From Nemertoderma westbladi (taxonomy: Eukaryota > Animalia > Xenacoelomorpha), in NCBI GenBank assembly GCA_032718475.1, contig JAUCBJ010000196.1, positions 1 to 38,470 on the forward strand: 38,470 nt of DNA, read 5' to 3'. The translations under genes were made by a program, and so were the position numbers. The notes below the pieces were generated by a model that ran no database searches, was not told the DNA's origin, and saw only the letters and a list, made by a program, of their open reading frames with translations. Shown piece after piece: positions 1 through 24,889 of this stretch. Numbering within the stretch: the first letter of the stretch is position 1; each line of letters begins with the position of its first letter.

Positions 1-28
1 TATCAGTTATCCCACAAAAGCTTTTACA
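1..28 (-). mobile_element. Terminal 28 bp of another copy of the same BEL/Pao LTR (outer end of a second element or a solo LTR, truncated by the window edge)
   Basis: TATCAGTTATCCCACAAAAGCTTTTACA is identical to 8113-8140 and 22458-22485. It is followed by AATTG..., which is neither the internal PPT flank (CCGCTCCC) nor the CCTCC TSD. Confidence 0.9.
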
Positions 29-1929
29 AATTGAATCACTCTTTTATTAACATTAAGATAAAAACAATATAAAGTCGAAAAATACAGTAGTTAGGTAAGT
101 ATGAAATAAGATCAGTTTTTAGTCTGATTGTAGTCTAGTCAGTGCCACATAAAATATACATTATATATATATATTATATTATTAAAACTCCAAATAACAA
201 TGAATCTTAATATAAATTAAAATACACACGAACTAACCCTGATTAATTATAATTAGGCCATAAAATAAGAAAAATATTTCATTATATTTTCTTATTATAT
301 TATTACATTATATATGTTATTATCTTATTATATATTTTTCTTATTAATATTTTCTTACGCATTTAGGCCTAATGTATTGTATAATATTTGTGTACTGTAA
401 GTACAATGTAATTCGTAGTATATATTGTACTATGCCAGAAATTGAACAATAATTTGAGAAGAAGGGCGGAACATCACCCGGGCTTATAGCACTTGCGGGG
501 GTCCGAAATTACAAATTTCTGTCAAAGTGGCAAAAATTAAATAAAACAATATCCTTAGTGATCGAAATATACTTCAATAAGTGGAGCGGAATGTTGCAAT
601 TTTTTATGTTAGTAGGCCCCCTAGCTAGATATATTTGTACCTTCTACAGTGCAGTATAATTAAACATTGTAGCGAGCGGCGTCAAGGTTGCTTAAAATCA
701 CTGCAATCTCGTGGATTCAGTCGTGCTGGACAGAAATAAATGTATCAGAATCTGGATCGGGTGAAATACACTACACACTTTTGAGAGTTATTGTTTATTT
801 AAATTTGTAAACAGAATATGGTTGCATTGTATAATATTATGCTGTGGGGTGTAGATACTCATAGGCCTGCTGTATGGTCTACTTTTTCATTATTTTAGGC
901 GGCTTCTGCAGCTATTGTGGGAAGGGGGAACAACCCACACCACACCAATAACGCATTGAGCAATTAATACCATAAGAATAAGAAACATCCTTCCAATTAA
1001 TTAATTTACTTTAGGACTGACTATATAGAGTAACTATAGAGAGGCACCTGTTGCAAATAATATTTCTCAGAAACTACTTTCGTCATAACGTATGTCATTG
1101 TTAACTACAGTGTGCCGGCACGCCCACACGCCGTACTGGTTCTTATTTAGGAATCATCCTAAGAGTTTTAGTATAAATTTAGTCGAACCGGTACCATAAT
1201 GTATGTATTAGACGCCATGTAAGAAATAAAAGTTTTATGTGGCATACATTCAGTACACTACACTGTTTACTACTGTAAATAATAAGTACACTATTATACT
1301 AGTGCACAGTAGTCAGTTGTTGATCTTAATGTTAACCTTACTTTTAGTTTTAGGTCGTTCATACTACCAATTCAAAAATCAAAGATAAATCTAAAGTAAA
1401 TTAACTTATCTTAAATGGGAAACAGAGGCTTTTTCCCGATATTAAGGGGTCAGAAGGTAACAAGCTGTTAGTTTCCATATATACAGTAGAAACGAGTGTT
1501 ATTATACCCAATGTATTTGAAGGTAAAAATCCAAGTAAGAGTTGCCTTTTGTTTCATTTCACTAAAACTTTAGATATGCCTATTGAAAAAAATGAGCAAA
1601 AAATTAGTTTATTTAATATAATCTGATAATTAATTAACCATAAATTATCTCGCATCGCAACTGCAAAAATCAACTTTGCTGGTACGTGGTACGGAGTTCT
1701 ACCTTGAACAAAGAACATGGCGAATTTATATTTGATGTGATTAATAATGTACAGTAGCTCCTAGCTATACTGTACTGTACAGTAGGTGGTACAGTGAGTA
1801 CCTCGGTCAGTCCGGTAGCGGTAGTTAAAAAATAAATATCGAAATTATGTGGGGATGAATAATAATAATATTTAACAAAAACATTATTTATTATTTATTA
1901 TACTGGTACTTCTATACTTGGTGCGGGAT

Positions 1930-2793
1930 ATGGCGAGCAGTCAAGCGTTGTCGATCGCTACCCAGAGACCCATGGAAGCCTTCCTTGCCGGGTCCGTTGG
2001 TGGATTTTGTTCCACCTACTTATTCCAACCTTTCGACGTACTAAAAACCCGTTTACAAACGCGACCGGTTGGCGACATCCGTCTGTACCGCCTAGCTGGC
2101 GAAGTTGTCAGACGCGAAGGCGTGTTCACCCTGTGGAGGGGAACAGTGCCCTCGCTGTTCCGTATAGTTCCGGGTGCCGGGGTTTATTATGCGACGTTAC
2201 ACACCGTTAAATCTTTCTTCTTCCCTACGACGCCGGTGGAATCGTTAGGCTCGACCACCGTGGTCGGTATAGCCGCGGTTTCCCGCACACTTCCGGTGGT
2301 TCTATTCCTCCCACTGACCACCATGAAGGCTCGGTACGAGAGCAATCTGTACGCGTACAGCGGTCTCCGATCCGCAATACGCGACGTTATATCCCGAGAA
2401 GGCTTCCGCGGTTTATACTCCGGAATGACTCCGACTCTTCTGCGAGACGTCCCCTACTCCAGTCTCTACCTACTGTTCTACACCCGCTTGAAACATTTAG
2501 TTCCGGCCTCTTTAATAGGAACTCCTTACGAATCTTCGTGCCGTTTCGTTTTCGGTATATTCGCTGGGGTCGCCGCCTCCACTATAACTCAACCCTTTGA
2601 TGTAATAAAGACTCACATGCAGTTACATTCGCGGCAACGCAATGTGTTTCTTGTGGTATATTATCTCGCCCGGAGTGATGGATTTCTCGGGTTCTATAAA
2701 GGTCTCTCAGCTAGACTGCTGCGTCGAGCCCTACTCAGCACTACCTCGTGGACTATATTCGAACAGTTTAATAGTCGTTTAAAGCTTTTTTAA
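1930..2793 (+). CDS. SLC25A38: Mitochondrial glycine transporter (SLC25A38/Hem25-like carrier), uninterrupted CDS, 287 aa
   Basis: Three carrier signatures Px[DE]xx[KR]: PFDVLKTRLQ, the degenerate PLTTMKARYES, and PFDVIKTHMQ. Subfamily-typical motifs AFLAGSxGGxCST, RYESxxYxY, LLRDVPYS and RRALLSTTSWTIFE are present. The first ATG is at 1930 (the ORF track starts at a TTG at 1918). AATAAA near 3035. Confidence 0.88.
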   Translation: MASSQALSIATQRPMEAFLAGSVGGFCSTYLFQPFDVLKTRLQTRPVGDIRLYRLAGEVVRREGVFTLWRGTVPSLFRIVPGAGVYYATLHTVKSFFFPTTPVESLGSTTVVGIAAVSRTLPVVLFLPLTTMKARYESNLYAYSGLRSAIRDVISREGFRGLYSGMTPTLLRDVPYSSLYLLFYTRLKHLVPASLIGTPYESSCRFVFGIFAGVAASTITQPFDVIKTHMQLHSRQRNVFLVVYYLARSDGFLGFYKGLSARLLRRALLSTTSWTIFEQFNSRLKLF

Positions 2794-3279: not shown

Positions 3280-3889
3280 ATTTTTACTGTATTTTATAAC
3301 TTTTTACACAACAACTACATTTCTGTATCATTAATCTCAGACAACCCGTGTAAAATCCTCCTTTTCCATTACCATTGCAAAATTAAGGGAAAGAAACCAA
3401 GCAAGTTCAATGGTGGTAGTTTCTAACCAAAACACTAAACTGTAACTCAATACACAGAATTCCATACCCGATTATAAGTAGTAATCAGATTTATCCAGGC
3501 ATGAGTGTCCCACTTACTCATCACTCACACACACGTTGCAGTCACAAACTCATGGAGGGTTACCTAATAATACCACCTTTTATGCAAAGTATTTTCCTCA
3601 TTGGTGCTACGAATTAACGATGTTTGTAAATAACAAATTAGCCATATTTATTTAGTAGGCCTCACTTATATAGTTTAACTATTATTATATTAATTATAAT
3701 TCAATAATATTTCAATTTGTCCCGTTAAATAATGAAACTTGTTAAGGTGCATGGTCCGATGGCTAGGCGGCGAAATAATTGGGTGAGCACGAAACAAAGA
3801 CTCAATGAATATATAGACCAGTACAAAACACATGTGTTAACTTTCGTTTATTATTTTGGCGCCTCTGTAACCTGCTCCTTTAAATGGCA

Positions 3890-5189
3890 ATGGGACATAA
3901 CGCTCATTGGGACCTAACGCTCTTTGGTACCTAACGCTCATTGGGACCTAACGCTCTTTGGTACCTAACGTCCTTTGGTACCTAACGCTCTTTGGGACCT
4001 AACGCTCTTTGGTACCTAACGCTCTTTGGTACCTAACGTTCTTTGGTACCTAACGTTCTTTGGTACCTAACGCTCTTTGGGACCTAACGCTCTTTGGTAC
4101 CTAACGCTCTTTGGTACCTAACGCTCTTTGGTACCTAACGTTCTTTGGTACCTAACGCTCTTTGGTGCCTAACGCTCTTTGGTACCTAACGTTCTTTGGT
4201 ACCTAACGCTCTTTGGTGCCTAACGCTCTTTGGTACCCAATGCTCTTTGGTACCTAACGTCCTTTGGTACCTAACGCTCTTTGGTATTGGTACCTAACGC
4301 TCTTTGGTACCTAACGCTCTTTGGGACCTAATGCTCTTTGGGACCTAACGTCCTTTGGTACCTAACGCTCTTTGGGACCTACGCTCTTTGGTACCTAACG
4401 CTCTTTGGTACCTAACACTCTTAGGTACCTAACGCTCTTTGGTACCTAACGCTCTTTGGTACCAAACGCTCTTTTGGACCTAACGTCCTTTGGGACCTAA
4501 CGTTTTTTTGGGACCTAACGTTCTTTGGTGCCTAACGCTCTTTGGTACCTAACGCTCTTTGGTACCTAATGCTCTTTGGTACCTAACGTCCTTTGGTACC
4601 TAACGCTCTTTGGTATTGGTACCTAACGCTCTTTGGTACCTAACGCTCTTTGGGACCTAATGCTCTTTGGGACCTAACGTCCTTTGGTACCTAACGCTCT
4701 TTGGGACCTACGCTCTTTGGTACCTAACGCTCTTTGGTACCTAACACTCTTAGGTACCTAACGCTCTTTGGTACCTAACGCTCTTTGGTACCAAACGCTC
4801 TTTTGGACCTAACGTCCTTTGGGACCTAACGTCCTTAGGTACCTAACGCTCTTTGGGACCTAACGTCCTTTGGTACCTAACGTCCTTTGGTACCTAACGC
4901 TCTTTGGGACCTAACGCTCTTTGGGACCTAACGTCCTTTGGTACCTAACGCTCTTTGGGACCTAACGTCCTTTGGTACCTAACGCTCTTTGGTACCTAAC
5001 GCTCTTTGGTACCTAACGCTCTTTGGTACCTAACGCTCTTTGGGACCTAACGCTCTTTGGGACCTAACGCTCTTTGGGACCTAACGCTCTTTGGGACCTA
5101 ACGTCCTTTGGTACCTAACGCTCTTTGGTACCTAACGCTCTTTGGTACCTAACGCTCTTTGGGACCTAACGCTCTTTGGTACCTAACGC
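3890..5189. repeat. 17-bp minisatellite, about 75 units of ACCTAACGCTCTTTGG(T/G), with a 329-bp higher-order duplication
   Basis: Uninterrupted tandem units with no spacers. Rare variants recur 329 bp apart: TTGGTATTGG at 4281/4610, CCTAACACTCTTAGG at 4411/4740, ACCAAACGCTCTTTTGG at 4461/4790. Confidence 0.97.
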
Positions 5190-6931: not shown

Positions 6932-8140
6932 TGTTCGCGCTTTTGAAGACCTTTAGCAGTTTAACCTGCCAAAATTTATATGTCTTTTAGTTAATTAAAA
7001 CACCTTTAGCATACGACAATATTTTATGCTAATAAACAAAACATTACCCGAAGTCAGCCCATGCGCGATCATTCACCCGATGGATCTACACCCGGGAGGC
7101 TGAATTCGGCTGCTTAAATTTTATTATTGCAGTGTAAGGTTGCAGTGTAAACCTACTGTATTATTCGATTGATCGTTATTAATTAATTTCTGACAGATAT
7201 TATTGGCTTTCGGGAAATATTAACAGTTCCTTTAGGACGTGGCGCTCTATCTATTTAAACAGAACTAGGACTTATACTACACGCAACGATACTGCTTATG
7301 ATTAAAGTATAAAGCGCATTCTTTAGGAAATGCTTTGTTGCCAATCACAATCATGCACACTATTCTGCCGACCGTCAGTAAATTTGATCACACATAAAGA
7401 GAGCAGCAATTGACCCATGTAGGGTCTGCTAAATAACATTAGATTCAATACACACCACATTAATATAAATCGCAATTGCTATATATAGCCTGTCTCTCTA
7501 ACCTGTAGTGTATCAAGAAAATTGGGAAATTTGGGTGATTTATCAGTATTCTCCAAAGAGCAATATTTCCATCAACAAATAGATACAATTAATAACTGAC
7601 GGTAAATAACAGTACAAACAATATGATTAATAGTGAGTTAATTAGATCAGATAAGATTGATTGATTAGTTGATTGAGTTAGGTAACAGTTTATACTTTCG
7701 ATAATTTAAGCAGTTTTACTAGAGTTCTTCCCAAAAAGCCGGTGTTATGGCGAAAAATGGGAACACAACAACAGAATCATATAAAATCATATGACTACAT
7801 AAACCTATACGAGGATACCAACTACCCTTATTCCACGAAGCTCCCGTTCAACACAGAGGATGAGCATAGAGATAGGAAATTCAGTTCAGTAGCTCTGGGA
7901 TAGGTCGAAATCAACGCCCACTCAAATTCTATTGGCCGACACGGACAGCAGGGCAGAGGCAACCTCCCTAAACTAGTTGGCCGATTAAACTGAGCCCAGA
8001 TATCTCCGTACAGCACATCAGCCAATAAGCTGGTAGCTTGCACTATTTTAGTTATAAATCCCTTTGAGAGTATTCTAGCGACTGGGGGGGAACTGGCCAG
8101 CAAAGGCAAACGTATCAGTTATCCCACAAAAGCTTTTACA
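6932..8140 (-). repeat. 3' LTR of the BEL/Pao element (1209 bp)
   Basis: Direct repeat of 21277-22485. The only difference noticed is C7415 versus T21760. Candidate AATAAA on the minus strand at 7120-7125. Confidence 0.97.
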
Positions 8141-8150
8141 CCGCTCCCAG
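8141..8150 (-). promoter_or_regulatory. Polypurine tract (short)
   Basis: The minus strand reads CTGGGAGCGG immediately before the TGT of the 3' LTR, which is the PPT position. Confidence 0.7.
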
Positions 8151-8218
8151 AAAATGGGATTTAAGTCTATAAAATATACAAAATCACAGTTTCTAAAATA
8201 TAAAAATACTCTAAACAG

Positions 8219-9268
8219 TTAGTCTTTCTTGCGCGGACGGCGTTTACGCAGTTTTTTAAAGCTAGCAAGAGTCCTTTTCTCTTTGGGGCGAGCTACTTTA
8301 CGAGGAGGGCTATAACTCCGGGGTGAAGGGTGCAATATGATTGCATCAGAAGGTATGGGATTACGATCGGTATATCCGCCGGTCGAAGTACCGGGTTGAT
8401 TGACATCAACGTCCGGGGAGAGGGGTCTAACGGCTTTGAGAGCTCGTTTCAAGACAGCCGCTCTTACGGGTCCTTTACGAGTGGTCTGAACGAGGGCCGT
8501 GGGTGGACCATAGGCAGTTAGAAACTTCCTTGGTTTAATGGTTCTTTCCAACTCGCGTTCGCAGGCTCTGTACTCGTAAGGCCGTCGATATACTTCTTGT
8601 AACTCGGGGTGTGAGTTGACAAATAAGTCTCCATAGGCCGGATCTTGACGGATGAAGTTTATTAAGTTGTACGAATTGATGTCACTCGGATTAATGCTCC
8701 TGAGAAATTTGCGTACATATTTGGTTGAAATACATTCTCCAACGCGCTTCAATAGTTCATAACTTGATAGGCGTGATTTCTGCTCGACGGAGGCAAACAA
8801 ATAAGGATGGAACGCATAAACTCCTTCGTAAGCGCGTCCAGGATAATAGCGATGGCGTGAATCACAATGTAAATCAGCGTTCGCTTCCCAAGCTCTGATA
8901 TAACGTAGTACAATCATTTCATCTACGCTCTCTAAATCATGGTTAAAGGGACAATCAAAGCTGGCGTGTCCTTTTAATTGACAATGATGACATTGAGTCA
9001 TAAATTGGGGGCAGACAGCAAAAATGTGCAAATTATTAAGCCGACAATATGCACAATAGATTTCCATCGACGGTTGCTCGTGGAAATAGGAACAAAGATC
9101 GTTGGTGTCCATAGACGTAATATGGTCTCTCGATGCGCACAACCGACAACGTTGCCGAGAAACATAGTTGACATGGCGATAATCGTACGCAGTGAGACAC
9201 TGTGGACCTTGATACCATTCTAGGATGTAATCGTTGTCGCTGTTCCGAGCGCGATAGGCTGAATCTCC
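8219..9268 (-). CDS. Element-encoded accessory protein, C-terminal part: tandem CCHC zinc knuckles and a basic NLS-like tail; not an envelope protein
   Basis: The frame is open from 9268 to the stop at 8219 (first in-frame ATG at 9112). Motifs CAYCRLNNLHIFAVC and CHHCQLKGHASFDC (CX2CX4HX4C); C-terminus KKLRKRRPRKKD. No signal peptide or transmembrane stretch. Confidence 0.7.
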   Translation of the reverse strand, partial: GDSAYRARNSDNDYILEWYQGPQCLTAYDYRHVNYVSRQRCRLCASRDHITSMDTNDLCSYFHEQPSMEIYCAYCRLNNLHIFAVCPQFMTQCHHCQLKGHASFDCPFNHDLESVDEMIVLRYIRAWEANADLHCDSRHRYYPGRAYEGVYAFHPYLFASVEQKSRLSSYELLKRVGECISTKYVRKFLRSINPSDINSYNLINFIRQDPAYGDLFVNSHPELQEVYRRPYEYRACERELERTIKPRKFLTAYGPPTALVQTTRKGPVRAAVLKRALKAVRPLSPDVDVNQPGTSTGGYTDRNPIPSDAIILHPSPRSYSPPRKVARPKEKRTLASFKKLRKRRPRKKD

Positions 9269-9667
9269 TCAGATTCTAGACATATTGGTTCGTCTTCCCA
9301 GTCTGTTACGAATATAATTTTCGTGATCTATTCTCGGTTTATCGTTACGACTCCGCTGGGTATGATATTTAAATAGAACCATTTCCCTTTCGGTGTATAC
9401 ATCGTCCGTATCATGTAAATCGATAGGATGGCCGGTAGTTAGGAAGTCCATATACGTACCATTACGATGCGTATAGCGAGCGGTTAATTTTCGATAGTCC
9501 AATTCACGCGTAAGTTGCTCTTGGGACATCGGCGGTTCGATATAACGACCATCGTCCTCCGTAATAGTCGGATCGGCTTCACCGCGTATCAAGCTATCCA
9601 CAAACGCTTGTAAAGGTAGAGTATATCGCTCCCTGATACCAAGGTCATCTTCTATCAATTCCGTCAT
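9269..9667 (-). CDS. Element-encoded accessory ORF, N-terminal part (132 aa, unknown function), in frame with 8219-9268 across one TGA
   Basis: ATG at 9667, coding-like composition, ending ...ATC TGA. The next 42 codons are open and lead directly into the 307-aa ORF. Confidence 0.62.
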   Translation of the reverse strand: MTELIEDDLGIRERYTLPLQAFVDSLIRGEADPTITEDDGRYIEPPMSQEQLTRELDYRKLTARYTHRNGTYMDFLTTGHPIDLHDTDDVYTEREMVLFKYHTQRSRNDKPRIDHENYIRNRLGRRTNMSRI

Positions 9668-10479
9668 ATCTGCTATCTGAGTTTATTAATATCAGTATGA
9701 GTTAATATTTAGGTAAGCGGGCGTCGCTGCTTACTAGTCTTTGCCCTCGGACAGTGGGTTTCTCAGCGCCGATGTACCGTTGTCGCAGTGTTTACGCCAA
9801 CATGTAGCAACAGCACGACAACGATAACCGGCACAAGTCCCACCACTGCCCGTCCCAAAGGCTTGAATCCACTTGAGGTTATCTCGGTAGAGTTAGGGCT
9901 ACTTTACAATTGCGATTAGCTACTGTAAACACACTTTAGTAGTAACATTCACCTATAAACGCACAAATTCCATACAATCATTACTTACTGCACACATGCA
10001 TGCCATTTGTCCGTTAGTCAGTATCTTCCAGAATGTCACGTTATTACTATGTATCCTTGGATACTAATAGTGCGCTATGTATACTCTTATGCTACGCAAT
10101 GGGGCAAGCTTTTTATTGTTCCTTTAACTTGCTTCTAATTCTAGCGTGGGTGTTGCCATGGTGACATTATGGAAAACTAGCGGTAGAATTAGGGCAATTC
10201 TCATGTATACAGATCTGGGATGTTATTTAATAGTAATTCTTTAATTGTCAATATCCTCTTTATGCATGATTTTATAAATTTTATCGGCTATTGACTATAT
10301 ATTGGAGATTCTCGCACTCTAGTACACTCAATATGAATCTCCGCTCCCATGATCTATTAATTACTGGAATTTTGGGAATGTTATAAATTGCACAAAATGA
10401 CAATTTATGAAATTCATTTGAATATGAATTTAAATTTATTCCCGTGAATTTTATTATTTGATGTTAAGTTGACACAAAT

Positions 10480-10771
10480 TTTATTCCAGAGCATATCTGG
10501 GGACTTAGGATCCTTAATTCTATAAAATAGTCCTTCTAAGAATATCGGTAAATGCTGCGATATCTTAATTGACTAGAAATTTTAAAGGATCTGAAATTTA
10601 CAGATTTTAATAAATATGAAATTAATATTTAGGATGAGCACCGATTTATTCCAGAACTTGTCTGGGGACGTTAACCACTGATTCTAGAATTTGTCTTTCA
10701 AGTATATCGGTGGGTGCCACGATATCTTAATCGACTAGAATTACAGATGGTCAAAAAGTTTAACAGATTTA
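10480..10771. repeat. Diverged tandem duplication (165-bp period) in the pol-accessory ORF intergenic region
   Basis: TTTATTCCAGA-N5-TCTGGGGAC ... TATCGGT ... CGATATCTTAATYGACTAGAA ... ACAGATTTTA starts at both 10480 and 10645. Confidence 0.8.
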
Positions 10772-11285
10772 TTTGCGATTTACGCTACTGTTAAAGGGAC
10801 ATCACGCTACTATATGTATTATTTGTTATAAGGTAGAAGAGCAATATCGCACGAAGCAATGTCAGTGTGAAGAGGCAAGTCGTTTCCAAGGTCTACCCAG
10901 AGCTTGGTTTAGCCGAGACACGAGGATCTGAACTTTGCATTCCTAATACTCTGCCTACCAATAATACTTGAATATAGTAGTGGCTTTATTGTACTTTAAG
11001 AAGTACGGACATTTCATCTTACTGTAGTCACGTATTTATAATATGATACGGACAGTAAGGGAAGAGAAAAATAATTATTTCTCGCCGTCGCACTAAATAT
11101 ATTATAGTAATTATGTACGTAATAAACACTAATATATTGCACTAATCTACTAAATAATCCCTAAAATAACATTCTACTAAATAAAAATTGAATAAAAACG
11201 ATTATAATAAAGTACATAATAAAGTTCGCATATAAAATGTAATAAAATAGATAAATAACATAGTCATACACCCACTCCAGACGTA

Positions 11286-14200
11286 TCACGTTTGGGAGTC
11301 CCTAGATGTTTGAGGAATTAGGGAGGTGGTCGTGGGAAGAGTGTCTTGTCTTCCATAGTTTCCAGAGAGTTCTCTGTCTCTTTCCAGTAAACATAAACGA
11401 CCAACTGGGCGATTGAGTTGTTGCGTCTCAAAGATTATGCCAGGCTTCTTGAAGTTACGCCGCATAACGATGAGTTCTACTGAACGCACTAAACCATCCT
11501 CCGAGATATGGGTCTCGATGATACGACCTGTCTGCCACCGTTTACGTGGGAGGTCTGGATCTACAATAAGTACCATATCTCCGGCGCTGACGTTTTCCTG
11601 CTGCGCAAACCACTTAGTTCGAAGTTGTAGCGTGGGCAGGTAATGTTTCTCGAAATGGTCAGCGAAACGACGGGATAGCAACTGCATAAGTTGCCAAGTT
11701 CGACGGCAGTATTCGTCTCCGTCGACAATCTCCGATCGTGGGAGCATGGCTACCGGTTTCTTCAGTAAGAAGTGCGCAGGTGTTAGCGCTTCCAGGGAAT
11801 CGGGACTCGATGAGACTGGCATAAGCGGTCTCTCGTTGAGATAGGCAGCTATTTCCTCCATTAACATCCGCAAAAGTTCGTCGGTGAGATACGCACGGCA
11901 TGGCACTATAAAGTGAAATGCGGTCTTAACACTTCTAATTAATCTCTCCCAACTTCCTCCCCACCAAGGGGCGTCGGCGGCGTTGAAGGTCCAGCTAGAC
12001 GCTGTTATCCTTAGCTGGTCATCCACCTGTCTTTGGTTCCAGTCCTTTACGTAAGCCTGTATTTCGTTGTTGGCACCAATGAAGTTCGTTCCCTTGTCCG
12101 ATCTCATGGTATTACTCGTACCGAAGCGAGCGATCTGTCGTCGTAGACTTAAGACGAAACTGTTGGTAGATAGATCGTTCACCATATCGAGATGGATGGC
12201 TCTGCAAGTCATGCACACGAAGATGAAACACCATCTCTTGACTATAGTCCTCGCACGATATACTTCAATAGGGCCAAATAAATCTACACCAGTATTAGTA
12301 AAAGGTGGTTCATAGAAGCTTACTCGTTCCCTAGGTAATTCTGCCTCTCGCTGTGTTAAAGGCCTACTGAATGCTTTCCTACAGGGTATGCAGTTCCTAA
12401 GAACTTGGTTCAGAGCCCTACGGGGTTTATCAAAATAATAGCGAGTTCGAATTTCGCTAAGAACTCGTTCTCTTCCAGCATGATAAAGCTTACTGTGAAC
12501 ATCTACAATCATTTTGATTTGTACTTCAAGATTTCTAATGAGTATGGGGAATTTAGTGTCAAAGGATAAGGGTGCATTGGTTAACCTTCCTCCAACACGT
12601 ATTAATCCATCTATCATTGTGCTAGAGAATCGATCCCTTAAGCGCATCTGCGGATTTCTCAACAACAGGAAATACTTTTCGGAATCCTCATAGCATTGCA
12701 GGAGTCTCAGTATCTGTTTATTAGTCTCTTCATGCTCCTGGTGACTAATTTTCTCCTTTAGAAACCGGTCTGATATCTTGTACTTCGGTAGATCTTTAAT
12801 AACATAAACTTGCGCAGATGTTACTGGAGCAGGATCACTAGTGGTCTGCTTCCTGGAGTAATGATGGTGAAAACATCTCTTTAAGTATGTGATGGCTTTA
12901 CAGAGACGATTCCAGGAACTGTAATGATGCAGTGCTCTCTGCAGCAGGGGTGAGATTCCTTGCGAGACATCTGGTATCTCAGATTTCCAATCTCTGTCTC
13001 TAATTTCCACAACAGACTTGTTTGTGGCGAGGGATTGTGGATCCGAAGTATCGTTTTCGGCAGTATGTAATACAGATAGATCGATTGTCGGTTTAAATAA
13101 TTTCGATTTACTTGTTCTAATTTTGGGTTTGACTTTTTCCGCTCCCTTGGCTTGTCTAATCTCAGCCGTAGTAAGGTGAGGAGGCCATTCATCCTCTTCC
13201 TTGCTCAGGAAGTCGGGTCCACACAACCAGTCAGGGGTATCTATCAGTTCCTGTGGAGTTGCTCCTCTGGAGGCGATGTCAGCTGGGTTAATCGTACCAG
13301 GGCAATGTCTCCATTGATCTATCGTTGTGCGACTAAGAATAATGGCCACTCTGTTAGTAACAAAGACGCTGAACTGACAGACTTGATTGGTTATATATTC
13401 CAACACAAGTAAAGCGTCGGTCCAATAAACAGTTTTCTCCAGTGGATAATCGATCTGTTCCGTTACATTCCTGCCAATAGCTGTAGCGTATAAGGCTGCT
13501 TTTAACTCCGCCCGAGGAACCTTAAGCTTGTTGTTAATCAATGCCTTAGAGGTAACCAAGGCAACTTTGATTCCATCCGGAGTTTCGACTCGCAGGTATG
13601 CTACTATACCGATTCCCATATCGCTGGCATCTCCAAATACATGGAGTTGATAGGAATACGTAGGGAGAACATGACCAAAATATGAACGGGAAATTATAAA
13701 GTTCTCGATAGCAGGTAGCGAGTCCTCCCATTTCATCCATTTCTTTAATAATTCTCCCTTGAGGGGATCGTCCCACGAGTGGTTTTCAAGCCACATTTGT
13801 TGTACTAAACTCCGAGCAATCAATATAACTGGGCTAATAAATCCCAATGGGTCGAAATAAGTGCTCAGGATACTTAAACAAATCCGTTTGGTCCGAACTG
13901 GATTATCTCGCTGTTTTAGTTGAAAAAACAGGATATCTCTTTCCGTGTCCCACTTCAAGCCTAGCGTCTTGGTTTCAGGAAGATCGTCTTTTATTAAGTC
14001 TAGGTCTTTCGCTCCGCGATCCTCTACCGGTATGGCTTCCAGAAACTCACGGGAGTTACTAGTGAATTTCGTCAGTCGAAATCCACCTCTTTTCAAACAC
14101 TCTACCGTTCCTTTCGCGACAGCTATGGCTTCTTCTACTGATGGAAGGGACCTTAAATTGTCGTCCATGTATATATTGCGTTTTATGTTGTCTATCACTT

Positions 14201-17200
14201 CTTTGGAGAAGGAGTCTCGGTTGTCGTTCGCAGTGGTTCGCACCACGGAGCAGGCGTTGGAAGGGCTAGATATGATCCCAAAAGCCTGGATGGTCATCCA
14301 GTACTCCACCGGTTTCTGGTTGAGGTCTCCTTCAGGCCACCATAGAAATCTCAGGCTGTCTCTATCTCTCTCCAGCGCCTTGACTTGTAAGAACATTCCT
14401 TCAATATCGGAAGCGAACGCGATGGAATATTGTCTTAATCTCAAAAGTATTCCCAACAAAGATTGGAGTAAATTGGGTCCTGGTAACAACTCGGAATTAA
14501 GGGATTGGCCCATATATAGGGCGGAGCCATCAAATACGACCCGTACTTCATGGGGTTTACCGGGTTTGGGAACGTAATGATGTGTTAGATAATAAGTTCT
14601 TTCAGTTATTGGAGTTCCTTCCGGTACTCGCTCCGCATATCCCTTTGTGATAAATTTCTTCAACTGAGTTTGGTACATTTCCTTAGCTGAAGTGTTTGCC
14701 GTAAGACGTCGATGTAATTGATTGATTCTTTTCTCAGCCAAGGGTCTGTTATTTATAAATCTGGGTTCACGTTTTCGGAAGGGTAGTCCGATTTCATATC
14801 TACCTTGATCTTTTAAAAAACGTGTGGTTGTTTCCTGGATTTGTTTGGCTCTTTCTTCTTCTATCGACAGGGCTTTGTCGTATGAATTGGGTTCTACTAA
14901 TTCTTGGGTAAAGAATCGTACGGCGAGTTCGTCCCGAGTTCTAGCGTTGTAGCGCTCTACCTCGTCATTAAGTTCGTCATTATAAATAATGGATTCCGTT
15001 GGGCGAATCAGTTGACATAGGTTCGTTTGGTTTTTCCAAGTCTGATTCTCTGTAAGTAGGTCAATTGTGTTCTCTTCTTCGAAGAGTTGGTAGATGTCGT
15101 CATTATCTGAGGAGTATGGTGTTCCCTCAGTTAGTTCGTCCACCTCACTGCTTTCCACTTCCCAATCGTTTACTTGATATATTTGTTCGTGAGGCATTCT
15201 CTCTTCGAGAGTTCTACGGGAAGGGCCAGTAAAGTACCAACCTACTCTAGTTCTTACCGCATAGGTTTGCAGTGATTGTGGTTGAGCAGGCCGTTTCTCT
15301 AATGTTTCGAGCGCTTCGTGCGCGTTTTGGCCGATAAGTATTTGCACTCCAGGATAATCTGTCTGGAATCGAGGTATCTTCAGATGTTGGACGCTCTCAT
15401 CTTCGTCCCAATTATAAAGGTCTGCTTGAGTAGTAGCAAAGTTCTTTATAGCCACCATTTTTACTGACCTTATGCCTTGTGTTCCTAACTTATCCTGGGG
15501 GGTGGACAACACACCTACATAGTAATCTGCCGTTAGGGTAGATTTCCATACCTGCATAATTCCTGACATATTCAATTTAGTCCGGAACTTGGGTTGTCCA
15601 GCAAAGATATCTTCGGCTAGTTCTTGATCGATGAATGTTCCTGTGCTGCCGGAGTCCAGGAGGGCGTTCACTATGTAGCTTTTGTTAAGACCGTGAACTC
15701 TTACCTGAACTACAGGAAATTCTCTGATTCCTACGTTGGAAGCTGGAGCTTTCCAAGATGGTTGTTTGGCGAAATTAGTTGGGGAAAACTCATCGTTGAT
15801 GTCCTTTTCGTAAGTAAGTGCTCGATACACCGCGGTATTTATTAGATAACAGGATTCATTGGCGTCGGAGAATTCGTCAGTATAGAATCCTTCCATCTCA
15901 GACTCTTGATCAGTGTCATTTACGTCACTAAATTGGACATGCAGTTCGGGCTCACTTACCTGACTCTGTTTGTCTCGTTCGAACTCACTGTGTAACAAGA
16001 TGTGATGTTTCGAGCCACACTTTGCACACTTTATGTCGGAGTAACAGGTTCGCCGTTGGTGTCCTGGTCTGAGGCAATTATAGCATAACCGCTTGTCCCA
16101 CACAACTGTACGTCTGTCTACAAGGGATTTCTTTAGAAATTCAGCACACGCACTCAAACGGTGTGTCCCGTCGCACAGCGCACAGTTAGGTTTGATGTTA
16201 CTCACTTTACCTTGGTTAACTTGATGCACTCTCGTTTTTTCTTCAGGTTTTCTTCGGTGCATTCTGTTCGGAGACTGAGGAAGGGTCTTGGCAATTTGTT
16301 CTCTCCTATCGTTTCGAGCCTTGTATTTACTTACGTCCTTTGAGGTTTTGTCAACATAATAAGATCGGTCTGTGTCTTTCCCGCTGTCCTCTTCTTGGGA
16401 AGCTTGGCTTTCGCCGTCGTCAGTGTAACACACCGGTGTTACTCTTCTCCTAGAAGTGGGTTTCTCACTTACCTTATTTTCTGATGTTTTCTCTCTGGAC
16501 TGCTTGATGAGTTGTAGTTTTACTTCACCATCTAAGAAAGACATGAGATCAGCCATGGTAGGACTTCGTCGTTGTTGTTCATTCATGTACAACACTTTCT
16601 TGTCCCAGCGTGTACATACTCCACCCTTTGGTAAAGTAGAGACTACGGCTCCAATAACCATGGAACTCTGATATTCATGCGACTTACCTAACCAGTCCAG
16701 TTGTCTACAGATCTCTTGAATTTCATCGGAAAACTCTATAATCCCGCTACTAAGGAAGTGTCGGGGGGCTACTAATTTTGCATACAAATACTTAGCTATG
16801 TTATCCTTGTTACCATACCTGATGTTTAGTGTATCCCAAACTTGTCTTAATCCATCTGGATGTCCAATAAACTTTAACGCCATTAACTTGGGAGGTCCTT
16901 CCAAGCACTTGATGAGGAACCTAAGTTTCTCTCCGTTAGATAGCACAGAGTTCTGTATGCTGTCTTTGTAATATTCGTTGAAAGGTAACCATTTCATTTC
17001 GTCTCCATTGAATTTGACGATCTCTCCCACTTTGACCGCTTGGCGGGCTTCTGTTCTAGCCATCTGACGCGTAAAGCTTTCTTGGGCCATCGTGTTATTT
17101 AATATCGAATTATCGGTATATAAATTTCTCGGATCATTATCAGGTCTATAGGGAATATCATTAATAACAGGTCTATAATCACCCTTAATAGGGTTTGCTA

Positions 17201-19298
17201 TAGGAGTTTCAACTTCACTAGCAGTATAGATGCGTGTAGGCTCCACACCTTGCGCATGTAATACTTCAGACCTAACAGGTTGACACAATGTTACAGGGGG
17301 GATTGGTATGCCCTTTTGTATATTGACTAATTTGTCGCGTTCTAGCGCGATACTTTGCTGCACTTCTTGCAACTCTGCTCTACCTTCCCTCACTGTTCCC
17401 TTAAGTTGGTGGACAGTCTCCTGCATCTGTCCTAGCAGGAGATTCATCCCCCGCCGTCCCTCTTCCACCCACTCAACCGCCGAAGCGGGAGTCGCCAACA
17501 TAGTAGCGGGCTGACGCGGGACGACGGGAGACAAATTATTGATTTCTCTCTCTGCTATCTGGACAGGGATATTCTCTTGGACTGTTCTACCGGGTACAGG
17601 CAGTGTAGTACTATGTAAAGGGAATTTAGAGTTAAGCTCTGGAAGTACAGGGGTCTCTAGCACAGAAGTGACTTTGGGAACAACAGGCCTAATTATTTCA
17701 GGTTCATCGACTATAGTAGGGAGCCTTTGGACCTGGATAAATCGTTCTATGGGTTCTGCACTACCTAAGTCTGTGCTAGTTAGCTGTCTTTTAACAGCTG
17801 GGGGCAAATCAGGCAATTTGCGACGGTAAGATGTTTTTCTACGCCTACTTAGATGAGATCTATTTCCTCCGCCTTCAGGATCGGTGGTCTCGCCTTCCTC
17901 CGAGGATGTGTATCCCTGGCGCTTGGGAGTAGATTTTCTCATCATCTGCATTTGATTAGCAGTAAACTGTTTATTTATACTGTCTTGTGTCTCTTGCAGA
18001 TTTTCCAACTCCAGTTGGGTAGTCTGCTCAGCGGCTCTCCGTTCTGCTTCTGCCACTGCCTTTGCTGCTTTTGCATCTGCCGCCGCTGCCTTTCTTTCTA
18101 CTTCTGCTTCTGCCATAGCCGCCGCCTTTTGTTCCTCTATCTTTCTTTTCTTTATTTGTTCTTCTCGGACTCTAGTGAGGCGGAGTTTTTCATCACATTC
18201 AGCTTGGTTTGCAGCTAACATTTCGGCATCGATTGAGTCCAACACAAGCTTGGTTCCTTCACTATTAGGGGAAAGTCCAGACAGCCGTCTCCTCAACTCT
18301 TCGTCTCCTAGGAATCGCTGATAGTCGGACAAATAAATGTCGATAGCGTCTCTAGTTCGCGGTTTCTCGGCGATCTCTTCGCTTTCCGCTTGAGAAAGGG
18401 TGACATCAGTTAGTTCTTCATAGGTTGATCTCTCAGCCAGCTGGGATTTCCACTGGGCCGTTTCCTGTACTTTGAGATCTACCCGATGTAACCAAGTTTT
18501 GACAGCAACCTGCAGCGACGTGTCCTGTCTTCTTTTGGAAGTTTCCTCAAAGGCTGAGAGGATTAGTCGAATGCGTAGGGTTCTTTCGCGTACTTGGTAT
18601 AGCAGCTCTTCCTGCTCTTGAGGTCCTTGAAGTTGTCGAAACAGTTGTTCTTCCAATCGCTCCAAGGAGCCGAAGAATCCCTGCACATATCCTGCTGCCG
18701 ACCTCTTCCAAACAGCTGGATCCATTGTATCTTCAGCCACTCCCATCCTGTGTATATCTTCCCAAGTAGCCTCGGACAGATCCAACGGGAGTCCGAGTCC
18801 GGGAAAGTTCCATTGTGACTCGACAATAGACATCAATTCTTCCCTGGCGTATCCCGCATAATTATCTTGGGTCGCTCGCTTATTCCTCGCCCAGTCGGCT
18901 TGATGTTCCTCCACCGCAATGAATATAGTAGTTAGCACTGCAGCAGGAAGGGTAAGAAGGGGGTCTGAGTAGACTGTAACAGCCATCTGCACTCCGCCTT
19001 CGGGGGTCAGCTCTACAGTATCCGAACTACTGGAGCTATCGGGTCGCTGGGAAGTAGGTTCTTGACCAAGATGTTGCTGCGATAGGACAACTGCCTCTTG
19101 GTTCCGTTTGACCTGTGCCCGAGTACCTATGATGGACCTATGGTGGATTAGCCTAGGGTCTGATACTACTGGAGGGATGACCTTTTTTGCAGTACGAGGT
19201 GAGCTGAACTCCTTTCTTAATCGCTCTATACTCCTATCTGAGTCACAGATAGTTGTATCGATCAGACTGTCTGACAGGTTTTGCTGAGTGTCAGACAT
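11286..19298 (-). CDS. BEL/Pao Gag-Pol polyprotein, 2670 aa (long N-terminal extension, Gag, three Zn knuckles, aspartic protease, RT, RNase H, integrase)
   Basis: Gag core KFNGDEMKWLPF...LSNGEKLRFL. Triple knuckle CALCDGTHRLSAC/CYNCLRPGHQRRTC/CAKCGSKHHILLH. Protease ALLDSGS. RT VRVVFDGS, SDIEGMFLQV, YMDD. RNase H LHVFGDAS, PRAEL, WTDA, NPADIASRG. Integrase HSKLYHAG..CIPC, GVDLFGP, SDKGTNF, GGSWERLIRSVK. No stops or frameshifts. Confidence 0.97.
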   Translation of the reverse strand: MSDTQQNLSDSLIDTTICDSDRSIERLRKEFSSPRTAKKVIPPVVSDPRLIHHRSIIGTRAQVKRNQEAVVLSQQHLGQEPTSQRPDSSSSSDTVELTPEGGVQMAVTVYSDPLLTLPAAVLTTIFIAVEEHQADWARNKRATQDNYAGYAREELMSIVESQWNFPGLGLPLDLSEATWEDIHRMGVAEDTMDPAVWKRSAAGYVQGFFGSLERLEEQLFRQLQGPQEQEELLYQVRERTLRIRLILSAFEETSKRRQDTSLQVAVKTWLHRVDLKVQETAQWKSQLAERSTYEELTDVTLSQAESEEIAEKPRTRDAIDIYLSDYQRFLGDEELRRRLSGLSPNSEGTKLVLDSIDAEMLAANQAECDEKLRLTRVREEQIKKRKIEEQKAAAMAEAEVERKAAAADAKAAKAVAEAERRAAEQTTQLELENLQETQDSINKQFTANQMQMMRKSTPKRQGYTSSEEGETTDPEGGGNRSHLSRRRKTSYRRKLPDLPPAVKRQLTSTDLGSAEPIERFIQVQRLPTIVDEPEIIRPVVPKVTSVLETPVLPELNSKFPLHSTTLPVPGRTVQENIPVQIAEREINNLSPVVPRQPATMLATPASAVEWVEEGRRGMNLLLGQMQETVHQLKGTVREGRAELQEVQQSIALERDKLVNIQKGIPIPPVTLCQPVRSEVLHAQGVEPTRIYTASEVETPIANPIKGDYRPVINDIPYRPDNDPRNLYTDNSILNNTMAQESFTRQMARTEARQAVKVGEIVKFNGDEMKWLPFNEYYKDSIQNSVLSNGEKLRFLIKCLEGPPKLMALKFIGHPDGLRQVWDTLNIRYGNKDNIAKYLYAKLVAPRHFLSSGIIEFSDEIQEICRQLDWLGKSHEYQSSMVIGAVVSTLPKGGVCTRWDKKVLYMNEQQRRSPTMADLMSFLDGEVKLQLIKQSREKTSENKVSEKPTSRRRVTPVCYTDDGESQASQEEDSGKDTDRSYYVDKTSKDVSKYKARNDRREQIAKTLPQSPNRMHRRKPEEKTRVHQVNQGKVSNIKPNCALCDGTHRLSACAEFLKKSLVDRRTVVWDKRLCYNCLRPGHQRRTCYSDIKCAKCGSKHHILLHSEFERDKQSQVSEPELHVQFSDVNDTDQESEMEGFYTDEFSDANESCYLINTAVYRALTYEKDINDEFSPTNFAKQPSWKAPASNVGIREFPVVQVRVHGLNKSYIVNALLDSGSTGTFIDQELAEDIFAGQPKFRTKLNMSGIMQVWKSTLTADYYVGVLSTPQDKLGTQGIRSVKMVAIKNFATTQADLYNWDEDESVQHLKIPRFQTDYPGVQILIGQNAHEALETLEKRPAQPQSLQTYAVRTRVGWYFTGPSRRTLEERMPHEQIYQVNDWEVESSEVDELTEGTPYSSDNDDIYQLFEEENTIDLLTENQTWKNQTNLCQLIRPTESIIYNDELNDEVERYNARTRDELAVRFFTQELVEPNSYDKALSIEEERAKQIQETTTRFLKDQGRYEIGLPFRKREPRFINNRPLAEKRINQLHRRLTANTSAKEMYQTQLKKFITKGYAERVPEGTPITERTYYLTHHYVPKPGKPHEVRVVFDGSALYMGQSLNSELLPGPNLLQSLLGILLRLRQYSIAFASDIEGMFLQVKALERDRDSLRFLWWPEGDLNQKPVEYWMTIQAFGIISSPSNACSVVRTTANDNRDSFSKEVIDNIKRNIYMDDNLRSLPSVEEAIAVAKGTVECLKRGGFRLTKFTSNSREFLEAIPVEDRGAKDLDLIKDDLPETKTLGLKWDTERDILFFQLKQRDNPVRTKRICLSILSTYFDPLGFISPVILIARSLVQQMWLENHSWDDPLKGELLKKWMKWEDSLPAIENFIISRSYFGHVLPTYSYQLHVFGDASDMGIGIVAYLRVETPDGIKVALVTSKALINNKLKVPRAELKAALYATAIGRNVTEQIDYPLEKTVYWTDALLVLEYITNQVCQFSVFVTNRVAIILSRTTIDQWRHCPGTINPADIASRGATPQELIDTPDWLCGPDFLSKEEDEWPPHLTTAEIRQAKGAEKVKPKIRTSKSKLFKPTIDLSVLHTAENDTSDPQSLATNKSVVEIRDRDWKSEIPDVSQGISPLLQRALHHYSSWNRLCKAITYLKRCFHHHYSRKQTTSDPAPVTSAQVYVIKDLPKYKISDRFLKEKISHQEHEETNKQILRLLQCYEDSEKYFLLLRNPQMRLRDRFSSTMIDGLIRVGGRLTNAPLSFDTKFPILIRNLEVQIKMIVDVHSKLYHAGRERVLSEIRTRYYFDKPRRALNQVLRNCIPCRKAFSRPLTQREAELPRERVSFYEPPFTNTGVDLFGPIEVYRARTIVKRWCFIFVCMTCRAIHLDMVNDLSTNSFVLSLRRQIARFGTSNTMRSDKGTNFIGANNEIQAYVKDWNQRQVDDQLRITASSWTFNAADAPWWGGSWERLIRSVKTAFHFIVPCRAYLTDELLRMLMEEIAAYLNERPLMPVSSSPDSLEALTPAHFLLKKPVAMLPRSEIVDGDEYCRRTWQLMQLLSRRFADHFEKHYLPTLQLRTKWFAQQENVSAGDMVLIVDPDLPRKRWQTGRIIETHISEDGLVRSVELIVMRRNFKKPGIIFETQQLNRPVGRLCLLERDRELSGNYGRQDTLPTTTSLIPQTSRDSQT

Positions 19299-19433
19299 GT
19301 TTAGCTATACAGTTGAATGTCTACTACTATAGTTTCAGTTAAAGCAAGTCTGGTAATTCAGTATGACCGCAAGCCTAGCGATTTATTACCGATACCGTTA
19401 CTCAGTGTAACATGATATATATACAATATATTA

Positions 19434-19684
19434 GAATACCGGTATGCTTATAATATATATAAGTATTATCACAGACTAGATTTGCTACAGAGTACCGGTA
19501 TATAATTTTAGCACAAATATATAAATATATAGTAGGCCTATAGTGAATACCGGTATACAGCTTACACTTATAGGATATATAAGTATAATTATTACAAACT
19601 AGAATTAATTACAGAATACCGGTATGATTTCAGCTCAAATTTATAGAAATAAATATAATAAGCCTATGGTAAGTACCGGTATGT
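19434..19684. repeat. Degenerate tandem repeat in the element leader, with five TACCGGTA palindromes
   Basis: TACCGGTA at 19437, 19493, 19548, 19617 and 19674. Alternate spacers resemble each other (a ~120-bp dimer repeated twice). Confidence 0.75.
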
Positions 19685-21080: not shown

Positions 21081-21209
21081 CAGCAGTACCGGTTAGGACA
21101 GTTGGGCCTACAGACCTACAGAAGTACCGGTTCTGGCAGTTGGACCTACGGACCTACAGCAGTACCGGTTCTGGCAGTTGGGCCTACTGACCTACGGAAG
21201 TACCGGTTC
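21081..21209. repeat. 38-bp tandem repeat (~3.4 units) in the leader near the primer site
   Basis: Units such as CAGCAGTACCGGTTCTGGCAGTTGGGCCTACTGACCTA start at 21081, 21119, 21157 and 21195. Confidence 0.9.
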
Positions 21210-21264
21210 AGGTTACCGGTCACTACGGTATTTTGCAACCTTATTGCCTACTGCAATAAGATCA

Positions 21265-21276
21265 ATAAACTGTTAC
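21265..21276 (-). promoter_or_regulatory. Putative self-priming primer-binding site (non-tRNA)
   Basis: Element-sense GTAACAGTTTAT abuts the 5' LTR end and lacks the TGG of tRNA PBSs. It is the perfect reverse complement of element-sense ATAAACTGTTAC at 22038-22027 in the LTR. Confidence 0.6.
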
Positions 21277-22485
21277 TGTTCGCGCTTTTGAAGACCTTTA
21301 GCAGTTTAACCTGCCAAAATTTATATGTCTTTTAGTTAATTAAAACACCTTTAGCATACGACAATATTTTATGCTAATAAACAAAACATTACCCGAAGTC
21401 AGCCCATGCGCGATCATTCACCCGATGGATCTACACCCGGGAGGCTGAATTCGGCTGCTTAAATTTTATTATTGCAGTGTAAGGTTGCAGTGTAAACCTA
21501 CTGTATTATTCGATTGATCGTTATTAATTAATTTCTGACAGATATTATTGGCTTTCGGGAAATATTAACAGTTCCTTTAGGACGTGGCGCTCTATCTATT
21601 TAAACAGAACTAGGACTTATACTACACGCAACGATACTGCTTATGATTAAAGTATAAAGCGCATTCTTTAGGAAATGCTTTGTTGCCAATCACAATCATG
21701 CACACTATTCTGCCGACCGTCAGTAAATTTGATCACACATAAAGAGAGCAGCAATTGACTCATGTAGGGTCTGCTAAATAACATTAGATTCAATACACAC
21801 CACATTAATATAAATCGCAATTGCTATATATAGCCTGTCTCTCTAACCTGTAGTGTATCAAGAAAATTGGGAAATTTGGGTGATTTATCAGTATTCTCCA
21901 AAGAGCAATATTTCCATCAACAAATAGATACAATTAATAACTGACGGTAAATAACAGTACAAACAATATGATTAATAGTGAGTTAATTAGATCAGATAAG
22001 ATTGATTGATTAGTTGATTGAGTTAGGTAACAGTTTATACTTTCGATAATTTAAGCAGTTTTACTAGAGTTCTTCCCAAAAAGCCGGTGTTATGGCGAAA
22101 AATGGGAACACAACAACAGAATCATATAAAATCATATGACTACATAAACCTATACGAGGATACCAACTACCCTTATTCCACGAAGCTCCCGTTCAACACA
22201 GAGGATGAGCATAGAGATAGGAAATTCAGTTCAGTAGCTCTGGGATAGGTCGAAATCAACGCCCACTCAAATTCTATTGGCCGACACGGACAGCAGGGCA
22301 GAGGCAACCTCCCTAAACTAGTTGGCCGATTAAACTGAGCCCAGATATCTCCGTACAGCACATCAGCCAATAAGCTGGTAGCTTGCACTATTTTAGTTAT
22401 AAATCCCTTTGAGAGTATTCTAGCGACTGGGGGGGAACTGGCCAGCAAAGGCAAACGTATCAGTTATCCCACAAAAGCTTTTACA
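21277..22485 (-). repeat. 5' LTR of the BEL/Pao element (1209 bp)
   Basis: Direct repeat of 6932-8140, followed by the TSD CCTCC. Confidence 0.97.
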
Positions 22486-24273: not shown

Positions 24274-24889
24274 GAACACAGTTTACAGTAAAAATTTTAC
24301 CTCTAGGCACTAATTTTTTCAATATAAATTTAACATTAACCCTATGAAAAGGCTGAAACGACACCCCAATTGGCTTTTTGCGTTCCGGTCACGGTACTGC
24401 GGTAAGGATCTTTAAAATAATACTACAGTAGCTAGAAATCTACTAAACTATAATGCAGAGCTGCTAATCACGTAATCAACGCTCTAATTATTAGCCTACT
24501 TACAGTAGCTTTGTCCTGTATTATCGAGACACTGGATCATAATATCCATCCATACTACCATAGATCATACAGTGGATAGACTGATTATAATGTTGTATGA
24601 ATGAATGAATGTACACCATGGCCCGTAAACAAAAAGCAATTGGGGTGTCGTTTCAGCCTTATCATAGGGTTAATGTTCAATTAATATTGAAAAAATTAGT
24701 GCCTAGAAGTAAAATTTGACTGCAAACTGTATTCCTAAATTTAGTTTATTGTTTTGGTAAAAAAAAGCCTGCCATTATAACCTGCTACTTTCCTTTACAA
24801 GGTACCTTAAATTGTGAATTGAATATCGTAATTAAATATTCGCGAAATTAAGTTAATATGTTAAAATAGGCTGAAACGACACCCCAATT
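24274..24889. repeat. Inverted pair of ~120-bp repeat arms plus a third core copy (MITE-family fragments)
   Basis: 24274-24397 and 24611-24734 are reverse complements with few mismatches. The core AGGCTGAAACGACACCCCAATT recurs at 24868-24889. Confidence 0.85.

What the first reader, a model, noticed from the sequence alone, without database searches (positions are those of the whole stretch)
8219..9667. Non-Env accessory gene at the env position: a zinc-knuckle, NLS-bearing protein of unknown family
Seen: between pol and the 3' LTR, on the element strand, lies a 1449-nt reading frame. It encodes a degenerate knuckle (CRLCASRDH), tandem CX2CX5HX4C and CX2CX4HX4C knuckles, a Ser/Pro-rich segment (QPGTST, SPRSYSPPRK) and a strongly basic C-terminus (KKLRKRRPRKKD). 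It has no signal peptide or transmembrane helix. Known: extra ORFs at this position in BEL/Pao elements are usually envelope-like, and CCHC knuckles bind single-stranded nucleic acid. Inference: a nuclear RNA-binding accessory factor, for example a Rev/Tat-like regulator, an anti-silencing protein, or a chaperone for the long-range self-priming fold. AG dinucleotides just upstream of the ATG (CTCAG ATAGCAG AT ATG) would allow a spliced subgenomic mRNA.
Basis: partly seen in the sequence, partly recalled or inferred. Interest (0 to 1): 0.75.

Follow-up and report, generated by a model that had tools for sequence, protein, structure and literature searches.

The report
Spliced orphan gene in BEL/Pao retrotransposon
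A jumping gene in an animal genome carries, where retroviruses keep their envelope gene, a conserved zinc-finger-coding region with no relatives in our searches, joined to the element's start at a textbook splice junction in one sequencing run and split by a stop codon that another sample's copies share; it likely makes an RNA-binding helper that would let the element's full-length RNA leave the nucleus.

Summary
Real and more complex than first described. [quoted passage not shown] All named motifs are present, but the 1449-nt frame has a TGA at codon 133. The stop is not private decay: the dominant contig of another sample (run X4) spans it unchanged. The knuckle half is under strong purifying selection (22 of 25 displayed differences in codons 186-316 synonymous, pN/pS about 0.05). 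Two X4 contigs join a donor in the 5' LTR (21848) to an acceptor at 9883, a canonical GT..AG intron of 11,965 nt; X4 depth is about 10-fold higher over the region than over gag-pol, other runs about 1. No homologue was found, not Gag, not Env; folds failed. Best reading: a subgenomic mRNA encoding a 132-aa protein and a zinc-knuckle, basic-tailed protein that likely works like Rev or C. elegans CERV (function inferred, about 40%). How the second frame is translated is open. Against: X4 is only inferred to be RNA and holds frame-breaking variants.

The parts
21277..22485 (-). 5' LTR (TG...CA, 1209 nt)
   Evidence: 99.9% identical to the 3' LTR, one mismatch; ends and 5-nt target duplication CCTCC
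22027..22038 (-). 12 nt complementary to the primer-binding site; inferred RNA 5' end and self-primer
   Evidence: exact complement of 21265-21276, chance about 2e-4; role inferred from Tf1/Tj1 (PMC4600332)
21842..21848 (-). splice donor CAG|GTTAGA inside the 5' LTR
   Evidence: two X4 contig joints resolve to it
21265..21276 (-). primer-binding site, not tRNA-type (does not start with TGG); lies inside the intron
11286..19304 (-). intact gag-pol frame, 2672 aa, BEL/Pao type, three NC knuckles of its own
   Evidence: Pfam Peptidase_A17, DUF1759, DUF5641, Integrase_H2C2; knuckles
10000..10200 (-). predicted structured RNA inside the intron near the acceptor; candidate binding site only
   Evidence: z -2.84, 2 of 200 shuffles as good; picked from 186 windows, so weak
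9883..9896 (-). branch-point-like CTAAC and splice acceptor AG
9748..9852 (-). long predicted hairpin in the 5' leader of the spliced RNA, holding a 3-codon upstream ORF (9803)
   Evidence: z -3.49, 0 of 200 shuffles; upstream ATG
9269..9667 (-). ORF-A, 132 aa, acidic (pI 5.5), ends at the TGA; probably coding
   Evidence: open frame; 4 of 8 displayed differences synonymous, not significant; no homologue
9269..9271 (-). in-frame TGA, shared by other copies
   Evidence: X4 record 21 (9161-9416, depth 2918 of 3734) spans it and no difference is listed there
9113..9268 (-). 52 open codons between the stop and the next in-frame ATG, with the degenerate knuckle; weaker constraint, net +1 indels at 9248-9254 in minority variants
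   Evidence: 3 of 7 synonymous versus 22 of 25 downstream, Fisher p 0.026; indel table
8219..9112 (-). ORF-B from Met186, 297 aa: two CCHC knuckles, unknown middle domain, S/P-rich segment, basic tail
   Evidence: pN/pS about 0.05 in codons 186-316; codons 317-482 almost unsampled; no homologue
8951..9055 (-). tandem CX2CX5HX4C and CX2CX4HX4C knuckles
   Evidence: only weak Pfam zf-CCHC_3, E 0.028, below cut-off
8222..8305 (-). basic C-terminal tail, predicted nuclear localisation signal
   Evidence: composition only
6932..8140 (-). 3' LTR

Best explanation
This BEL/Pao element has an accessory coding unit after pol that is under purifying selection, is likely expressed from a subgenomic mRNA spliced from the 5' LTR across gag-pol, and likely encodes a nuclear zinc-knuckle RNA-binding protein that would work like Rev or CERV, binding the unspliced genomic RNA so that it escapes splicing and leaves the nucleus. 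Steps: (1) shown: the coding unit, its conservation, the internal TGA, the GT..AG junction in run X4; (2) inferred: X4 is RNA and the spliced form is the default product; it lacks the primer-binding site and gag-pol, so it cannot itself be copied; (3) inferred: ORF-A (132 aa) is read first, and ORF-B is reached by a second splice (35%), readthrough of the TGA (30%), restart at Met186 (25%) or otherwise; (4) inferred: the knuckles bind the element's RNA, the basic tail brings the protein to the nucleus, and it rescues the 12-kb intron-containing RNA.
For: Junction: two X4 contigs (depth 493 and 1109) resolve to donor 21848 and acceptor 9883, canonical ends, branch-point-like motif 13 nt before the acceptor; depth 0 in X1, X3, X5 rows. 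Depth ratio accessory region/intron 10.4 in X4 versus 1.27, 1.13, 0.79 in X1, X3, X5, with the drop at the acceptor bin. Selection: 22 of 25 synonymous in codons 186-316, expected 28%, p 6e-10. No transmembrane or signal stretch, not Gag. Gag already has three knuckles, so a second packaging protein is redundant. Precedent: CERV occupies the same position in Cer1, comes from a spliced mRNA, has a Cys-rich region and a candidate NLS, and is needed for genomic RNA export (PMC10309623).
Against: No functional test; knuckles and a basic tail fit several roles. No sequence relation to CERV or Rev was found or tested by fold (both models pLDDT 35-37). X4 is labelled 'DNA?' and contig depth is a poor measure of expression; the junction rests on two contigs of one run with short sides of 22-23 letters. 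X4 also holds frame-breaking variants in ORF-B: a +1 at 8944 (depth 2408 of 7388, one contig) and a 160-nt skip at 8605/8766 (depth 2613, not GT..AG in this copy, 5-nt direct repeat). The route to ORF-B is unexplained: 14 ATGs lie between the acceptor and Met186, no structure follows the TGA (z +0.6 to +1.8) and no second X4 joint appears in 8720-9720. Only 40 of 181 differences were displayed, many from one divergent variant. The candidate RNA target is weak.
Confidence: 0.4

Rival explanations
1. The protein is an anti-silencing factor or transcription activator (Tat/Tas-like or a suppressor of small-RNA or chromatin silencing) made from the same spliced RNA.
For: Same anatomy: spliced RNA, knuckles, basic tail, selection; high copy number and near-identical LTRs show recent success. 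Spumavirus accessory genes are listed as a precedent class (PMC2238898).
Against: No activation-domain or known suppressor match; CCHC knuckles point to single-stranded RNA rather than DNA (established knowledge). Nothing tested.
Confidence: 0.25
2. The protein is an RNA chaperone for replication: it helps the 5' end pair with the primer-binding site about 760 nt away, or helps packaging and cleavage of the self-primer.
For: A 12-nt exact complement of the primer-binding site sits in the LTR; knuckles are chaperone-type motifs.
Against: Gag has its own three knuckles; Tj1/Tf1-type self-priming elements are described with Gag, PR, RT and IN only (PMC4600332 passages); a basic tail suggests the nucleus.
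Confidence: 0.17
3. The unit is a once-functional accessory gene now decaying in the dominant lineage: the TGA spread with a successful subfamily that relies on other copies or no longer needs the gene.
For: In-frame stop; frame-changing indels at 9248-9254, 9391 and 8944 and a 160-nt skip in some variants; no visible route to ORF-B.
Against: Common differences in ORF-B are almost all synonymous, including those at 30-85% share in the flat-depth runs X1 and X3; in X1 and X3 no indel reaches 10% in codons 186-316; 349 codons stay open; the spliced form is abundant in X4.
Confidence: 0.13
4. It is a Gag fragment of a nested element, a captured host gene or an Env.
For: Knuckles are Gag-like in kind; weak local similarity to BEL Gag knuckles (E 0.12-0.8).
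Against: No significant match in 121 BEL polyproteins, 1.84 billion representatives, Pfam, PDB sequences; no hydrophobic stretch; present family-wide.
Confidence: 0.05

Closest known systems
CERV of C. elegans Cer1 (Gypsy/Ty3) (PMC10309623; passages and section 9 read)
   Same: Non-Env ORF between pol and 3' LTR, spliced mRNA, Cys-rich region, candidate NLS, lineage-restricted sequence.
   Different: Host element is BEL/Pao; CERV takes its first exons from gag, whereas the junction seen here skips gag entirely; CCHC knuckles instead of a C4-type finger; internal TGA; no sequence relation found; export function untested here.
Env and env-like ORFs of LTR elements (PMC7264820 first third read; PMC3118150 passages)
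   Same: Same position and sense; expressed by splicing from the LTR/leader.
   Different: No signal peptide or transmembrane stretch; zinc knuckles and basic tail instead.
Rev/Rex and spumavirus Tas/Bet accessory genes (names from PMC2238898 passages; functions recalled)
   Same: Accessory products of spliced subgenomic RNAs with a donor near the RNA 5' end.
   Different: No homology; none of the recalled Rev features (Arg-rich RNA-binding helix plus export signal, response element) was tested.
Stop-separated ORFs of Tca2 (PMC2194720 abstract) and SIRE1 env-like (search listing; mechanism recalled)
   Same: A conserved in-frame stop between two coding regions of one RNA, with no obvious flanking signal (Tca2).
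   Different: Here the stop lies inside an accessory unit on a spliced RNA; minority variants change frame just after it; bypass not shown.
Tf1/Tj1 self-priming elements (PMC4600332 passages)
   Same: Primer-binding site complementary to an LTR sequence, not to tRNA.
   Different: Those are Gypsy-type fungal elements; this is BEL/Pao with a much longer leader; priming not tested.

Membership tests
BEL/Pao LTR retrotransposon (host element) | Peptidase_A17, DUF1759, DUF5641 and integrase zinc finger in one gag-pol frame | tested here: met
   nearest polyproteins 29-40% identical
BEL/Pao LTR retrotransposon (host element) | TG...CA LTRs with target-site duplication | tested here: met
Env / env-like ORF | signal peptide and transmembrane helix | tested here: not met
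   hydropathy maximum 0.83 over 19 residues
Env / env-like ORF | spliced subgenomic mRNA | tested here: met
   one run, RNA nature inferred
Gag nucleocapsid fragment | significant similarity to Gag, BEL-type knuckle spacing, capsid domain | tested here: not met
   best E 0.12; CX2CX5H spacing in 9 of 295 knuckle-like motifs of the fetched polyproteins; no DUF1759
CERV | sequence similarity | tested here: not met
   no hits of any kind; CERV was not compared pairwise
CERV | H, M and G-protein-like domains, ring formation | tested here: inconclusive
   both models unusable, pLDDT 34.6 and 37.3
CERV / Rev-like regulators (works like) | made from a spliced RNA of an element whose genomic RNA retains the intron | tested here: met
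CERV / Rev-like regulators (works like) | nuclear, binds genomic RNA, required for its export | not testable with these tools
   motif inference only
Readthrough-expressed ORFs | conserved in-frame stop | tested here: met
Readthrough-expressed ORFs | 3' structure or leaky context; frame kept across the stop in all lineages | tested here: not met
   no 3' structure, no Rfam match, net +1 indels 15-21 nt downstream in minority variants

The most novel reading that the evidence does not exclude
A 'complex' BEL/Pao element: self-priming, with a lentivirus-like two-RNA programme in which one spliced subgenomic mRNA yields two proteins through regulated bypass of a family-wide UGA, the longer one a new family of zinc-knuckle export factor that switches the element from splicing to replication.
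Probability: 0.2. Interest if true: 0.82.

Novelty: new variant of a known kind. Interest (0 to 1): 0.6.

Why it matters
How LTR retrotransposons get intron-containing RNA out of the nucleus is known for few elements; CERV is the one Rev-like case that our searches brought up. An unrelated orphan at the same position in BEL/Pao would show repeated invention of accessory regulators outside retroviruses. The junction, the shared stop and the selected region are now mapped to the base, so expression, recoding and function are directly testable.

Tried and rejected
No whole genome is held, so copies could be compared only through laid contigs. Homologue searches were blank: full frame among 265-844 aa proteins (0 of 3890 candidates), post-stop frame against 1.84 billion representatives (0), ORF-A among 72-231 aa proteins (0 of 2), metagenome and viral contigs (0 of 97, 0 of 2), PDB sequences (best E 0.87), PHROGs. 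The protein Atlas gave no answer. Two single-sequence folds were unusable, so no fold search was run. No RNA holder was listed by record. Rfam found nothing, including no SECIS. Private nonsense mutation: rejected. Acceptor next to the ATG: not seen, not excluded as a minor site. A second intron over the stop: phase-compatible donor-like (9459) and acceptor-like (9220) sites exist but no contig shows it and the dominant X4 contig is unspliced there. Codon-usage scores favour the frame in ORF-A and ORF-B but not in codons 134-185; a noncoding control reached a similar score in one frame, so this is weak. Earlier scan notes: nothing.

Full report
The element. The finding lies in an intact LTR retrotransposon on the minus strand, 22485 to 6932. 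The LTRs (1209 nt, TG...CA) differ at one position and are flanked by a 5-nt duplication, so the insertion is young. A single 2672-aa gag-pol frame (19304-11286) carries Peptidase_A17, DUF1759, DUF5641 and the integrase zinc finger, which places it in BEL/Pao. Its nearest polyproteins are only 29-40% identical, named ones from fish, sea cucumber, sea anemone, barnacle and insects. The host is presumably an animal; it was not identified and no genome is held.

The observation. The frame 9667-8219 holds every motif named, and no hydrophobic stretch. But codon 133 is TGA. It divides the frame into ORF-A (132 aa, acidic) and 349 further open codons, whose first in-frame ATG is Met186, after the degenerate knuckle and before the two complete ones. 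Both open stretches exceed chance (8e-4 and 6e-9).

Other copies. Seven public runs in four studies hold part of the stretch. In X1, X3 and X5 the accessory region is covered like the rest (ratio to the internal region 1.27, 1.13, 0.79), so it belongs to the family. In one search (8720-9720; X1, X3, X4) 40 of 181 differences were displayed. In codons 186-316, 22 of 25 are synonymous against 28% expected (p 6e-10, pN/pS about 0.05). In codons 134-185 it is 3 of 7, in ORF-A 4 of 8 (pN/pS about 0.4, p 0.17); one more synonymous ORF-A site appears. Codons 317-482 are almost unsampled (one synonymous site). Gag-pol gave 18 of 28 synonymous. The display rule is my inference (a difference at least 31 letters from a contig end, then by share); it should not favour codon positions, but many rows come from one divergent X4 variant.

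The stop is shared. No difference is listed at 9269-9271, while neighbours at 9268 and 9280 are. X4 record 21 (9161-9416, depth 2918 of 3734) spans the codon by more than 100 letters on each side, so a difference would have been displayed; X4 is a different sample and study from X1 and X3. A private nonsense change is thus excluded; the exact share in X1 and X3 is not known. All 9 indel rows were displayed: five at 9248-9254 (net +1, minority variants in all three runs), one at 9391, a self-cancelling pair at 9096/9101 and a +1 at 8944 in one X4 contig. So the stretch around the stop tolerates frame changes, while in X1 and X3 codons 186-316 show none at 10% share. Whether some lineages have a continuous frame cannot be told from short contigs.

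Splicing. Two X4 contigs join 9865/21848 and 9884/21856 (depth 493, 1109; 0 in X1, X3, X5). Both resolve to a donor CAG|GTTAGA at 21848 in the 5' LTR; the second also resolves to AG at 9883 (with one extra letter in the LTR exon), the first to within 2 letters of it. The intron is 11,965 nt, GT..AG, with CTAAC 13 nt before the acceptor; GT and AG together would come by chance in about 0.4% of joints. X4 depth is 10.4-fold higher over the four accessory bins than over the intron, falls at the acceptor bin and rises again in the LTR. An unspliced X4 contig across the acceptor has depth 388 but only 28 letters on the exon side. The 12 nt after the 5' LTR are the exact complement of LTR 22038-22027, as in self-priming Tf1/Tj1 (PMC4600332, passages). 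If 22038 is the RNA start, exon 1 is 191 nt and the spliced RNA loses the primer-binding site, which fits the junction's absence from the X1, X3 and X5 rows.

Against a clean picture. X4 also shows a 160-nt skip at 8605/8766 (depth 2613), out of frame, not GT..AG in this copy, with a 5-nt direct repeat, and the +1 at 8944: template-switch artefacts or defective expressed copies. How ribosomes reach ORF-B is unexplained: 14 ATGs and a stable hairpin precede Met186, no structure follows the TGA, and no second joint was seen.

What the protein is. It has no homologue in any search, is not a Gag piece and could not be folded. Function therefore rests on anatomy and precedent. A strong donor near the RNA 5' end and an abundant spliced form create the problem that Rev solves; a knuckle protein with a basic tail made from the spliced RNA is placed to solve it; Gag already has its own knuckles. 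CERV does this in Cer1 from the same position (PMC10309623, passages and section 9). I put this at 40%, anti-silencing or activation at 25%, priming chaperone at 17%, decay at 13%.

Novelty. Extra ORFs after pol are a known kind (PMC7264820, first third; PMC10309623; PMC11952523 passages for accessory ORFs upstream of gag). Searches listed no paper on a non-Env, knuckle-coding, spliced accessory unit or on self-priming in BEL/Pao; the library lacks most subscription papers, and the supplements of PMC3118150, which hold BEL/Pao sequences, were not read and may bear on this. I recall, unverified, that some C. elegans BEL-type elements carry an extra ORF beside env. Verdict: a real, selected, probably spliced orphan accessory unit with a shared internal stop; new variant of a known kind; interest 0.6.

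Noticed in passing
window 22027-22038 and 21265-21276: Exact 12-nt complement between the LTR and the primer-binding site: Tf1-like self-priming signature in a BEL/Pao element; the U5/leader also folds (z -2.3).
   Followed up: partly
window 8606-8765: 160-nt out-of-frame skip seen only in run X4 at high depth, with a short direct repeat at its ends.
   Followed up: partly
window 1-28: Matches the end of the same LTR: another copy or solo LTR of the family lies just left of the window.
   Followed up: no
window 21079-21212: Three 38-nt tandem repeats just after the primer-binding site, in a 2-kb leader.
   Followed up: no
window 10533-10740: 46-nt direct repeat, 162 nt apart, in the 1.6-kb noncoding stretch between pol and ORF-A; window 10626-10775 scores as structured in the coarse scan.
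   Followed up: no
window 1876-2793 and 26940-28049: Two host genes without introns in their frames: a mitochondrial carrier and an NIF-family phosphatase.
   Followed up: no
window 3755-5189: Array of a 17-nt satellite unit.
   Followed up: no
window 24292-24717 and 24929-26693: Long inverted-repeat pairs that look like nested MITE or DNA-transposon ends.
   Followed up: no
window 8141-22485, run X5: A run labelled as a second organism covers the whole element at low, flat depth; contamination, mislabel or sharing between species was not resolved.
   Followed up: no
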